NCBI GenBank assembly: GCA_964016885.1
Contig: OZ024759.1
Span: 37,200,001 to 37,264,000 of the forward strand
Direction: 5' to 3'
Length of the DNA: 64,000 nucleotides
Origin: Eledone cirrhosa
Lineage: Eukaryota
A program made the position numbers and the translations under genes. The first letter of the stretch is position 1; each line of letters opens with the position of its first letter. Below the pieces are notes generated by a model, which searched no databases, was not told where the DNA came from, and saw nothing but the letters and a program-made list of their open reading frames with translations. Shown one piece after another: positions 8,648-58,224 of the stretch.

Positions 8648-8837
8648 ATTCAATCGGGGGTAACCACAAGTTAGTAACTCAACACATTAGTAAAGTGTAA
8701 ACATCAAGTTTAATATAAAAAATGACTTCTACAGGACTAGAATTGTTTCATTCAAAAGAAATCATCACGAAACCTTCCCTGACGAGTTTTTTTTCTTTGT
8801 ATGAAACAGTTCTAATCTTGTAGAAGCTATTTCTATA
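8648..8837. mobile_element. Fold-back repeat family H (hammerhead-bearing, Penelope/retrozyme-like), degenerate copy
   Basis: ttcaatcgggggtaaccac...ctcaacacattagtaaagtgtaaac...ttaatata..aatgacttctacaggactagaattgtttcattc, followed by an inverted arm cctgacga...atgaaacagttctaatcttgtagaagctatttcta. Confidence 0.75.
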
Positions 8838-9026
8838 ATAAAATTATATATATTTATATATATAAATATATATATATATATAGTAATAATAATAAATGTG
8901 AGGACTAAAATCTGAAGAGGACACGATAAAGATTATATATATAAACCCGTAGGGCGAAGATCCTGTTAAGGGTGAAAGCAGCTATACTTTGCTTAAACTT
9001 TAATATGTTCTTATAATAAATAAATG

Positions 9027-16609: not shown

Positions 16610-16774
16610 CAAGGACTCAATACATTAATAGAGTGTAAACACCATATTTAATATAGAAATGGCTTCTACAGGACTAGAACTGTTTCATTCAAAATAAATC
16701 ATTAGGAAAGCTTTCCTAATGATTTCTTTTGAATGAAGCAGTTCTAGTCCTGTAGAAGCCATTTCGATATTAAA
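16610..16774. mobile_element. Family H copy with a near-perfect 128-bp fold-back (16647-16774)
   Basis: tttaatatagaaatggcttctacaggactagaactgtttcattcaaaataaatcattaggaaag|ctttcctaatgatttcttttgaatgaagcagttctagtcctgtagaagccatttcgatattaaa. Confidence 0.85.
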
Positions 16775-18136
16775 CATAATATACCGTATAGTTATATATA
16801 TGTGTCTGTGTGTGTGTGTATAATCGATTAGGTGTAGGTGTCAGTAAAAGTGTGTGCTGCTCTAGTCGACATATTTTCGTATGTTTAATTATTCTGCTTA
16901 CCTCTCGTCTATTTGATTAGATATGTTCATTGCCAGCTTGTACTACTTCCTCCCACCCCTCTCTCTGTGTGTGTGTATTAATGCCATAGTAAGATAATCG
17001 GAGAGGGAGGAGATATAATGTCAAAGAGAGGTAGTCTTTGATATAGAGTCCAATAGAGAGAGAGACGGACTGTAGTCGGAGAGAGAGAGAGAGCCAGACG
17101 GGGAAGGATTCTAGAAACATTGTGAGCCAGCCGAACAAAGAGAGAGAGAGAGAAAGAAAGAGAAAACAGGACTATAGAGTGAGAGAGACAGCCAAACGGA
17201 GAGAGAGAGGTGGGGGAGAGACAGATATATATATAAAGGGAGAGAAGAACTCTAGCTCGACAAAACGGGAGAGAGAGAAGTACTTTAGAATGAGAGAGAG
17301 AGACAGCCAGAGAGAGAGAAAGAACTATAGAGTGAGAGACAGCCAGACAAAGAGAGAGAGGGACTATAGAGTGAGAGAGAGAGACAGCTAGACAGAGAGA
17401 GGGGGGGGGGGTAGCGAGTGAAAAGCTTTCATTTGTTGCCAAGTCTCTTCTCGCAAGATATCGTTCGTGTCTCCTAACGTCAAAAGCAATGAGATCTTTC
17501 CACCGTAACTTCCGTTAACACTAAAATAATTTCCTTTTTTTTTCTTTCAAATTACCGGCTACCTTCCCCCACCACCCCTATACACACTCCTCCACCCCCT
17601 CTCTTTCTTCTCCCCAATCTAATACTCTCCCCCCCCCACTCCAACACACACTCACCCTCTTTCTTCTCCCCCACTCCTGCACACACTCATACTCTAATTC
17701 TCCCTCTACCTTAACCTTCTCCCTCCCACCCTCACTCTACTCCACCTCATCCTTCTCCTCCCTTTCATTTGTACCATTTTTTTCTTCCTTTTCCTCTTTA
17801 TTACATCAACTTTGTCATATTTTCATTAAAGAATGTTTTTGTTATTCTATTTTTCTCCTAACAAGTTCCTTCCTCTTCCTGTTCTCCCACCTCCTACTTC
17901 CTGTCCTCCCACCTCCTACTTCCTGTTTTCTTTATACATAGCTATATATCGCCATCGCTTATGTAACTTTCTCTCCTATCTCTCTCTCTCTCACTCTGCT
18001 ACTTTCCCTTTCATTATCTCTCCTCTCCCTTCTCCCACTCTCTGTAAATTTCACATTTGTTGGCTGCCATATCGCGTACAACTCTCCCCAAAATACACAC
18101 ACTCATACACACTCACACTCACCCATACACACTGGG

Positions 18137-18320
18137 ATTGGCAGTATCGGTAGAGGGTCGAACGCCATGCTTTGCAGCAAAGTTACGGCCCTTGCCATTC
18201 TGAGTTCAAATCCTGCCGAAGTTAACTTTTCCTTTCATCCTTACGGGGTCGATAAAATAAAGTACCAGTAATTCACTGGAATAATTGCTGGCCTTGTGCC
18301 AAAAGTAGAAACAATTATTA
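18137..18320 (+). mobile_element. tRNA-derived SINE (family A)
   Basis: Pol III A-box-like TGGCAGTATCGG (18139-18150) and B-box GAGTTCAAATCC (18202-18213). Body cctttcatccttacggggtcgataaaataaagtaccagt...gctggccttgtgccaaaagtagaaacaattatta is shared with copies at 36101-36270, 46298-46396 and 52463-52532. Confidence 0.85.
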
Positions 18321-35975: not shown

Positions 35976-36100
35976 ATCATCACCACATTCACTACTACCA
36001 CCACCACATTCACTACCACCACTACCACTATCTCTATATGATGCACGTTTTACCATCAACATCCTTGGAACACCATCGCCAATGACAACAAGAACACCAG

Positions 36101-36270
36101 GTTCTACTTTTGGCACAAGGCCAGCAATTACCCCAGTTCATTACTGGTACTTTATTTTGTCGACTCCGTAAGGATGAACGACAAAGCTAACCTCGGCGGG
36201 ATTTGAACTCAGAACGTAAAGGGCCGTAACTCTATGTTGCGAAGCATGTTGTCCGATGCTCTACCGATCT
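36101..36270 (-). mobile_element. tRNA-derived SINE (family A), reverse orientation
   Basis: Reverse complement of the 18137-18320 element: ggatttgaactcaga (B-box), actggtactttattttgtcgac, ttctacttttggcacaaggccagcaatt. Confidence 0.85.
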
Positions 36271-46195: not shown

Positions 46196-46396
46196 TAATC
46201 GATTTTCCCCTCCCCCCAAATTGCTGGCCTTGTGCCTAAATCAGAAACTATTATTATTATTACTGCCATTAACATGGCCATCATCATTAGTATCATCAAC
46301 TTTGCCTTTCATCCTTACGGGGTCGATAAAATAAAGTACCAGTAATACACTGGGATAATTACTGGCCTTGTGCCAAAAGTAGAAACAATTATTATT
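46196..46396 (+). mobile_element. Two 3' fragments of SINE family A
   Basis: 46196-46255 reads ...aaattgctggccttgtgcctaaatcagaaactattatt. 46298-46396 is nearly identical to 18225-18320. Confidence 0.8.
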
Positions 46397-46431
46397 GTTA
46401 TTATTATTTTCATTAGGGAAACCTACCAGTC

Positions 46432-46483
46432 GGCTTTCCTGATGATTTCCTTCGAATGAAACAGTTCTAGTCCTGTAGAAGCC
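46432..46483 (+). ncRNA. Candidate type I hammerhead ribozyme (family H, single arm)
   Basis: GGCUUUC-CUGAUGA(46439-46445)-U UUC CUUC GAA U-GAAA(46458-46461)-CAG UUCUAGUC CUG-UA^-GAAGCC. All conserved core nucleotides are present. Stem III is CAG/CUG, stem I is GGCUU(U)C/GAAGCC, the cleavage triplet is GUA. The first pair of stem II is a non-canonical U-U. Confidence 0.6.
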
Positions 46484-46629
46484 ATTTCTTTATTTAAATA
46501 TATATATATATATAATATATATATATATATATCTACAGTCGATCGACATTCGTCAAATCGGACCTAGGAAACAATGTTTCCATTGGTTTTTCCAGTTGCT
46601 AATACTATCTATGGGTCGTAACTCCATGT

Positions 46630-48565: not shown

Positions 48566-48772
<207 letters not shown>

Positions 48773-48790
48773 TGATATAGCCAAAATTGT

Positions 48791-48952
48791 TTCTACAGGA
48801 CTAGAACTGTTTCATTCGAAGGAAATCATCAGGAAAGCTTTAGTCCTGTAGAAGCCAAGCCATCTCTATATTAAATTTGTTGTTTACACTCTACCAATGT
48901 ATTGAGTACCTTACTAACAGTGGTTACCTCCGATTGAACCCGGATCTCACAC

Positions 48953-49000
<48 letters not shown>

Positions 49001-49053
49001 GTGTGAGATCCGCGTTCAATCGGAGGTAACCACTGTTAGTAAGGTACTCAATA
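48791..49053. mobile_element. Family H composite: hammerhead on the - strand (48791-48838), a partial + arm, and a tail-to-tail inverted duplication of the 3' tail (48900-49053)
   Basis: ttctacaggactagaactgtttcattcgaaggaaatcatcaggaaagc is the reverse complement of the 46434-46480 core. attgagtaccttactaacagtggttacctccgattgaacccggatctcacac is mirrored across (TG)n(TA)n(CA)n with one mismatch. Confidence 0.8.
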
Positions 49054-58048: not shown

Positions 58049-58185
58049 AGGGTTCAATCGGGGCTGACCACATTAAGGTACTCAATACATAACAGAGTAA
58101 AATTATTTAATATAGAAATAGCTTCTACAGGACTAGAACTGTTTCATTCGAAAGAAACAGTTCTAGTCCTGTAGAAGCCATTTAT
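58049..58185. mobile_element. Family H copy, fold-back with the apex (CUGAUGA part) deleted
   Basis: ggttcaatcggggctgaccacattaaggtactcaatacat...tttaatatagaaatagcttctacaggactagaactgtttcattcgaaagaaacagttctagtcctgtagaagccattt, flanked by (TA)n. Confidence 0.8.
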
Positions 58186-58224
58186 ATATATATATAATTA
58201 TGTATCTCTCTCTTACATAATTAT

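What the first reader, a model, noticed from the sequence alone, without database searches (positions are those of the whole stretch)
46432..46483. Hammerhead-ribozyme fold in a recurrent non-coding repeat, on the sense strand of a COE intron
Seen: the sequence reads GGCUUUC CUGAUGA [UUUCCUUCGAAU] GAAA CAG[UUCUAGUC]CUG UA^ GAAGCC. This is a complete type I hammerhead core with a 3-bp stem III (palindromic CUAG in the loop), a bulged stem I and a GUA cleavage triplet after 46477. The same core is intact on the - strand at 48791-48838 and mutated at 8779 (CUGACGA) and 16716 (CUAAUGA). Established: short type I hammerheads with weak stems, often acting as dimers, typify Penelope-like element pseudo-LTRs and non-autonomous retrozymes. 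Inference: this is an unannotated ribozyme-bearing retroelement family. The 46432 copy would be transcribed within COE pre-mRNA, ~2.1 kb before the exon acceptor, and could cut the intron co-transcriptionally. Caveat: the first stem II pair is U-U rather than the usual G-C.
Basis: partly seen in the sequence, partly recalled or inferred. Interest (0 to 1): 0.75.

Follow-up and report, generated by a model that had tools for sequence, protein, structure and literature searches.

The report
Hydra-clade Penelope end with hammerhead
This hammerhead-shaped sequence is the cut-short tail end of a very abundant Penelope-like jumping gene, one of tens of thousands of copies, and in the COE intron it is predicted to be folded shut rather than to cut the gene's RNA; across the family the motif begins a fixed 30 bases after a TATA box, so it likely sits at the very start of the element's own transcript.

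Summary
The motif is real (46432-46483, + strand, in a ~123-kb COE intron). It is the 3' end (pseudo-LTR) of a Hydra-clade Penelope-like element. Upstream walking reaches an RT + C-terminal GIY-YIG ORF, and 7 of 30 ORF loci carry this end inverted at their 5' break. A 23-mer of it occurs 31,535 times. Four subfamilies keep core and stems II/III identical while loop II and upstream DNA diverge; stem I shows a double compensatory change. It is not a retrozyme: no tandem neighbours among 100 matches. Cutting of COE pre-mRNA is not supported: this copy has lost its TATA box, a 5' fold-back remnant buries CUGAUGA (-18.0 versus -4.5 kcal/mol), and three other-family hammerhead hits lie sense in the same intron. 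One new point: in all subfamilies stem I starts 30 nt after a TATA box, a predicted +1. No RNA evidence was obtained. The scan had already noted Hydra-clade hammerhead stubs elsewhere in this genome. Verdict: new family of a known kind.

The parts
46432..46483 (+). Type I hammerhead motif (subfamily A): bulged 6-bp stem I, CUGAUGA, U-U plus 3-bp stem II, GAAA, stem III with 8-nt loop holding palindromic CUAG, predicted cut after 46477
46427..46497 (+). 5'-truncated 3' end of the Hydra-clade Penelope-like element; homology starts 12 nt before the core, so the family's TATA box is missing; short-end class running into (TA)n
46410..46423 (-). Short, diverged inverted remnant (likely the second arm of the insertion); pairs with 46432-46445 to form an 11-bp plus 2-bp hairpin of -15.3 kcal/mol that buries CUGAUGA
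46498..46532 (.). (TA)n tract at the 3' junction, the usual target of the clade
   Evidence: PMC8557442 section 11
46298..46394 (+). Unrelated abundant repeat just upstream (further copies at 18224-18320 and 36081-36186)
48601..48682 (+). COE (Collier/EBF) DNA-binding-domain exon; host gene on + strand
48760..48900 (-). Second copy, antisense to COE, two-armed; core intact, stem I changed, cleavage site paired by the other arm
16622..16777 (.). Head-to-head fold-back of two arms, both CUAAUGA; near-perfect hairpin (-88.6 kcal/mol for 16645-16774)
8684..8844 (.). Head-to-head fold-back, decayed arms
58103..58196 (.). Fold-back joined inside loop II; no CUGAUGA on either arm

Best explanation
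The motif is the hammerhead-bearing 3' end of a Hydra-clade Penelope-like retrotransposon, and the 46432 copy is a truncated stub lacking the TATA box, likely inert in the COE intron. Shown: link to an RT + C-terminal GIY-YIG ORF, tandem and inverted end arrangements, (TA)n/(CA)n junctions, two 3' end classes, four subfamilies with an unchanged core, and a fixed TATA-to-stem I distance of 30 nt. Inferred: in a tandem copy the upstream end acts as promoter, transcription would start at the first base of stem I, and the weak U-U ribozyme would cut part of the RNAs about 45 nt in and again at the downstream end. Because inserted ends run about 20-30 or 85-100 nt past the cut site, the template for reverse transcription would be uncut read-through RNA or a religated circle. 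At 46432 a fold-back remnant is predicted to pair with CUGAUGA before the rest of the ribozyme is made.
For: ORF link: L091/L068 runs EN remnant, microsatellite-rich 3' UTR, then hammerhead on one strand. L130 has inverted arm, ORF and direct 3' end. 7 of 30 ORF-selected loci have an inverted arm within 80 nt of the ORF's 5' break and 2 more have a direct end within the locus. In L204 the hammerhead lies 175 nt before the ORF's ATG. ORF motifs RWR, DKT, YRDDG, CxCX5C, YIG, CxxCxH match the Hydra clade description; GIY-YIG PF01541 E 1.6e-4; 781 homologues at E<=1e-20. Abundance: 402 exact 43-mers, 31,535 exact 23-mers; 22 head-to-head pairs under 1 kb among the first 100. Selection: between subfamily majorities 0 of 35 core/stem II/stem III/loop III columns differ, against 4 of 4 in loop II and 17 of 23 upstream; 2 stem I pairs change on both sides, 17 cells, 0 of 500 shuffles as high. 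TATAAAWA exactly 30 nt before stem I in 16 of 28 (A), 4 of 11 (B), 17 of 28 (C), 26 of 30 (D) arms. Context fold -18.0 versus -4.5 kcal/mol, stem I probability 0.0.
Against: No cleavage or RNA end was observed. Stems II and III show no compensatory change, and the stem I change is one lineage (D) counted many times; the measure 'pairs changed on both sides' does not beat shuffles (499 of 500). Sequence downstream of the motif is also fairly conserved (12 of 17 columns), so part of the conservation may serve end recognition. Native flanks also disfavour the hammerhead fold in silico for 2 of 3 copies tested, so the folding argument against the 46432 copy is only relative. The GIY-YIG score is just under Pfam's cut-off (22.3 versus 22.6) and Pfam gave no RT hit. 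21 of 30 ORF loci showed neither an abutting inverted arm nor a direct end within 3.5 kb. No intact full-length ORF was seen in the 12 stretches fetched for the young subfamily. No tree with published Hydra proteins was built.
Confidence: 0.82

Rival explanations
1. The sequence is conserved mainly as a recognition or priming signal for the element's RT/endonuclease, and the hammerhead is catalytically dead or nearly so.
For: Isolated hammerhead fold has probability 0.0007 (A) and 0.028 (D); no covariation in stems II/III; the downstream tail is also conserved; inserted ends do not coincide with the cut site; single metazoan PLE minimal hammerheads showed no cleavage in vitro (PMC4209133).
Against: Loop II varies at all 4 positions while flanking stems do not, and stem I keeps pairing through a double change; the same core/U-U/stem III layout recurs in published Hydra families of other phyla; a U-U hammerhead from axolotl cuts 22% in one hour as monomer.
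Confidence: 0.1
2. The 46432 copy cuts COE pre-mRNA co-transcriptionally and affects its splicing or level.
For: It is sense to COE, core-intact, the only descriptor hit in the window, and has a 4-bp stem III that could form as a monomer. Only 5 of 28 arms in the upstream-selected set keep core plus inner stems.
Against: Upstream 11-bp hairpin over the core; one of more than 31,000 arms; three other-family hammerhead descriptor hits lie sense in the same intron (L168, L169, L174); no same-strand intact partner of this family in the window for a dimer; no conservation in other species was tested.
Confidence: 0.05
3. A non-autonomous retrozyme or MITE-like element that only borrows Penelope enzymes.
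For: Most copies are short, non-coding, two-armed palindromes.
Against: [quoted passage not shown]
Confidence: 0.03

Closest known systems
Hydra clade of Penelope-like elements (Craig et al. 2021, PMC8557442; section 11, passages, supplement parts 2 and 52 read)
   Same: RT then C-terminal GIY-YIG; DKT; CxCX5C linker; CxxC and CxH around E/N; (TA)n junctions; 3' hammerhead. U-U at the base of stem II in 14 of 25 listed families; ACAG/CUGU stem III with GUA site in Hydra-1_aMil, Penelope-1_NV and Penelope-1_SK.
   Different: RWR for RWK; 8-nt loop III (0-3 nt in the published table); microsatellite-inflated 3' UTR making copies longer than 3 kb; tens of thousands of copies.
Hydra-1_Obim (Octopus bimaculoides; same supplement)
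   Same: Same clade, homologous ORF by eye (N-terminus, DKT, YRDD), (TA)n preference.
   Different: Different hammerhead sequence and stems; protein clearly diverged by eye (not aligned with a tool); reported without pLTR, whereas tandem and inverted ends are seen here.
PLE minimal/variant hammerheads (Cervera and de la Pena 2014, PMC4209133; parts 1-2 of 4 read)
   Same: Type I motif in PLE flanking repeats, mostly solitary or as close opposite-strand pairs; palindromic stem III region allowing a dimer (predicted duplex -12.8 kcal/mol).
   Different: No G10.1-C11.1 pair; short stem II; stem III long enough to form in a monomer.
Metazoan non-LTR retrozymes, axolotl HHR_Amex2 (Cervera and de la Pena 2020, PMC7229834; passages read)
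   Same: U-U mismatch at the base of a weak stem II.
   Different: Retrozymes are non-coding tandem repeats; this family is dispersed, head-to-head and ORF-linked.

Membership tests
Hydra-clade PLE | Single ORF with RT followed by C-terminal GIY-YIG endonuclease | tested here: met
   471-aa open stretch in L211 from RT core to EN; PF01541 E 1.6e-4, 22.3 bits against cut-off 22.6; YRDDG. All copies seen are broken or truncated.
Hydra-clade PLE | RWK and DKT motifs | tested here: met
   RWR (conservative variant, also in Chlamys-free Hydra-like position) at residue 38 and DKT at 116 of L204.
Hydra-clade PLE | CxCX5C linker; CxxC and CxH around the conserved E and N | tested here: met
   L207 and L204; CDLC before E read from the translation.
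Hydra-clade PLE | No CCHH zinc finger (no CxxC between GIY and YIG) | tested here: met
   VYK...YIG interval has one Cys (L065, L125, L126) or two Cys 8 apart (L207), no CxxC.
Hydra-clade PLE | Hammerhead at 3' end; insertion at (TA)n; tandem and inverted pseudo-LTRs | tested here: met
Hydra-clade PLE | Generally under 3 kb (descriptive, not strict) | tested here: inconclusive
   ORF about 2.1 kb; ORF end to hammerhead 1.5-2.5 kb in L211 and L207, inflated by microsatellites and nested repeats.
Hydra-clade PLE | Placement in an RT tree with published Hydra proteins | not tested
   Published sequences were read in the supplement but not available as tool inputs.
Type I hammerhead ribozyme | CUGANGA, GAAA, UH core with stems I-III in order | tested here: met
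   (90.6% of cells paired; slid controls 33-47%).
Type I hammerhead ribozyme | Covariation in stems | tested here: inconclusive
   Stem I only, one lineage; none in stems II/III.
Canonical type I hammerhead (Rfam models; G10.1-C11.1) | G-C at the base of stem II; match to an Rfam hammerhead family | tested here: not met
   U-U in all four subfamilies; no hammerhead hit at E<=10 for two copies. It matches the Hydra-clade variant instead.
Type I hammerhead ribozyme | Self-cleavage after NUH | not testable with these tools
   No RNA holder listed; contigs only.
Metazoan retrozyme | [quoted passage not shown] | tested here: not met
   0 same-strand neighbours under 1 kb among 100 matches; ORF-linked.
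Metazoan retrozyme | Circular RNA of unit length | not testable with these tools
   No RNA data.

The most novel reading that the evidence does not exclude
The element's promoter is locked to its ribozyme: transcription starts at the first base of hammerhead stem I (TATA + 30, pyrimidine-purine start, kept across four subfamilies whose spacer sequence has diverged). A deliberately weak U-U hammerhead would then split the transcripts into uncut capped mRNA for the RT and decapped, unit-length RNA that circularises and serves as template, which would explain ends running past the cut site and copies longer than one unit.
Probability: 0.3. Interest if true: 0.6.

Novelty: new member of a known kind. 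Interest (0 to 1): 0.3.

Why it matters
Hammerheads at Penelope-like element ends are known but their function is stated to be unclear (PMC8557442). This family offers four natural variants, one young enough to have copies 100% identical over 161-166 nt on five contigs, and a sharp prediction of where its RNA starts and is cut, so the question becomes testable with CAGE, end-sequencing and a run-off assay. For COE itself it matters little: the copy is one of many intronic hammerhead remnants.

Tried and rejected
Rfam scan of the whole window: the 150 listed of 839 matches were microRNA models on microsatellites. Focused scans of two copies gave no hammerhead. Sequencing runs: no RNA holder listed; three contig sets laid on 46250-46500 cannot show ends or strand, though they hold the family, including one run of a second organism. 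MITE reading rejected because the arms end at different sites and link to an ORF. An upstream block was also shared with another repeat family in the opposite sense; it did not break the walk to the ORF. TATA + 30 as a general rule: not seen among the 28 other-family descriptor hits in 1.0 Mb, so it is claimed for this family only. The first 92-nt alignment misplaced a gap in stem I and was redone on the motif alone; there the bulge gap sits one column off for subfamilies A and C, so the pair at columns 6/52 is valid only for B and D. Lunse et al. on PLE hammerhead dimers was not held; I saw only its citation in a review. Literature searches: hammerhead + Penelope + octopus, 5 papers, one on topic; Penelope + hammerhead + TATA + transcription start + pLTR, 0 papers; a search on intronic ribozymes not affecting splicing, 0 papers. 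The organism was not identified here; 'octopus-type' comes from earlier scan notes. Strand bias of intact copies in introns genome-wide could not be tested without annotation.

Full report
Observation. The 52-nt motif is at 46432-46483 as described. The window lies at G000:C20:37200001-37264000. PF16422 matches seven collinear plus-strand segments on C20, with one in the window; the exon is 48601-48682. The motif is therefore sense to COE, in an intron of about 123 kb, 2,123 nt before the acceptor. The bare core pattern is only marginally above chance (6 of 100 shuffles), but a full descriptor hits only this place and 0 of 100 resamples. Rfam has no matching hammerhead model, and the isolated motif does not fold better than shuffles.

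It is a repeat end. Four more loci in the window are head-to-head pairs of the same sequence. Genome-wide there are 402 exact copies of the 43-nt motif core and 31,535 of a 23-mer shared by all subfamilies. Among the first 100 of these, 22 pairs lie head-to-head within 1 kb, one tail-to-tail and none on the same strand. Copies are cut at varied 5' points and end either about 55-66 nt after the core start in (TA)n or about 125-140 nt after it in (CA)n or (TA)n.

It belongs to a Penelope-like element. Walking upstream through microsatellite-rich sequence reached a decayed ORF on the same strand. L091 links EN remnant to hammerhead; L092 has the end inverted at the ORF's 5' break; L130 shows inverted arm, ORF and direct end together. 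Of 30 loci chosen by ORF sequence, 7 have an inverted arm within 80 nt of the break and 2 a direct end in view; 21 show neither within 3.5 kb. In L204 a complete end precedes the ATG by 175 nt, a head-to-tail arrangement. The ORF carries RWR, DKT, YRDDG, CxCX5C, YIG and CxxCxH and lacks CxxC inside the GIY-YIG. These are the marks that Craig et al. give for the Hydra clade (PMC8557442 section 11). Pfam sees GIY-YIG just under cut-off and no RT. The 120 listed of 781 homologues are 37-54% identical and almost all unnamed. The family differs from the published octopus member Hydra-1_Obim in hammerhead and, by eye, in protein.

The hammerhead. In the supplement's table, 14 of 25 Hydra-clade families have U opposite U at the base of stem II, and three have the same ACAG/CUGU stem III with a GUA site. 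An axolotl hammerhead with the same mismatch cuts 22% in an hour as monomer and better as dimer (PMC7229834); single minimal PLE motifs did not cut detectably (PMC4209133). I found four subfamilies. Between their majority sequences none of the 35 core, stem II, stem III and loop III columns differs, while 4 of 4 loop II and 17 of 23 upstream columns do (38 copies picked by hand from the 97 arms, favouring arms without indels). Stem I has a bulged U, a bulged A or no bulge, and in D two pairs change on both sides. That is one lineage, and stems II and III do not covary, so the support is real but modest. Core plus inner stems survive in 5 of 28 A arms and 26 of 30 D arms (the sets include some duplicate, truncated and fold-back arms). 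The stem III strand can pair with itself (-12.8 kcal/mol), so a dimer is possible.

Promoter spacing. TATAAAWA begins exactly 30 nt before the first base of stem I in 16 of 28, 4 of 11, 17 of 28 and 26 of 30 arms of A, B, C and D; most of the rest have no intact box, and the -1/+1 pair is mostly pyrimidine-purine. The distance is tied to stem I, not to the core, since the bulge shifts the core by one base. By general knowledge of RNA polymerase II promoters (recalled) this puts the start site at the ribozyme's first base. This is a prediction; no RNA was available. A PLE start site within the pLTR is known for Penelope; one search for this spacing found no paper, and it was not seen in other hammerhead families here.

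The COE copy. Homology starts at 46427, so the TATA box is gone. Bases 46410-46423 resemble the reverse complement of the motif's own 5' part and form a -15.3 kcal/mol hairpin over CUGAUGA; the 46406-46483 RNA folds at -18.0 against -4.5 kcal/mol for the hammerhead. The hairpin is complete before stem I's 3' strand is made. Native flanks also compete with the fold in 2 of 3 copies tested, so this is a relative argument. Three hammerhead descriptor hits of other families lie sense in the same intron. Nothing singles this copy out.

Mechanism and verdict. Shown: identity, architecture, abundance, conservation pattern, spacing. Inferred: start site, cutting, circular or read-through template, inertness of the COE copy. 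Hammerheads in Hydra-clade ends, inverted 5' copies and (TA)n targets are published, and earlier notes of this scan describe like stubs in this genome (unchecked notes, not support). This is a new family of a known kind; the promoter-ribozyme spacing is the one point worth following. Papers seen: PMC8557442 (passages, section 11, supplement parts 2 and 52 and searches), PMC4209133 (parts 1-2 of 4), PMC7229834 and PMC6765202 (passages), PMC10919898 (listing only). The supplements of PMC4209133, which list many PLE hammerheads, were not read and could hold a relative of this motif.

Noticed in passing
L179-L203, e.g. G000:C4:318527991, C2:117867605, C19:18530783, C11:31817292, C1:187764790: Young subfamily D: copies 100% identical over 161-166 nt on five contigs; no intact full-length ORF seen in the 12 stretches fetched.
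   Followed up: partly
L168 +2946, L169 +3458, L174 +6117 (C20:37132947, 37143459, 37196118): Hammerhead descriptor hits of three other families on the COE sense strand in the same intron; 28 distinct other-family hits in 1.0 Mb examined.
   Followed up: no
L033:1935-2039 (minus strand): A full-length U6 snRNA copy (110 bits) lies antisense inside a copy of this element's 3' region, with flanking foreign sequence.
   Followed up: partly
L131 (G000:C25:25701000-25710900): Tandem array of 14 hammerhead motifs at 310-bp spacing, a retrozyme-like family; a 310-bp array was noted earlier in the scan.
   Followed up: no
L214:12-2336 (minus strand; G000:C3:90885000-90891000): 775-aa open frame that reads as an RT with a C-terminal GIY-YIG containing CxxC, a different Penelope-like clade by eye.
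   Followed up: no
window 48920-49033: Near-perfect inverted repeat made of this family's long tail around (TG)n/(TA)n/(CA)n; scores against microRNA models below their thresholds.
   Followed up: no
window 46298-46394, 18224-18320, 36081-36186: Another short repeat, about ten times deeper than the hammerhead end in run X1's contigs.
   Followed up: no
L071-L090: A ~100-nt block in this element's 3' UTR is shared, in the opposite sense, with the end of another abundant fold-back family, suggesting an old nested insertion carried along.
   Followed up: partly
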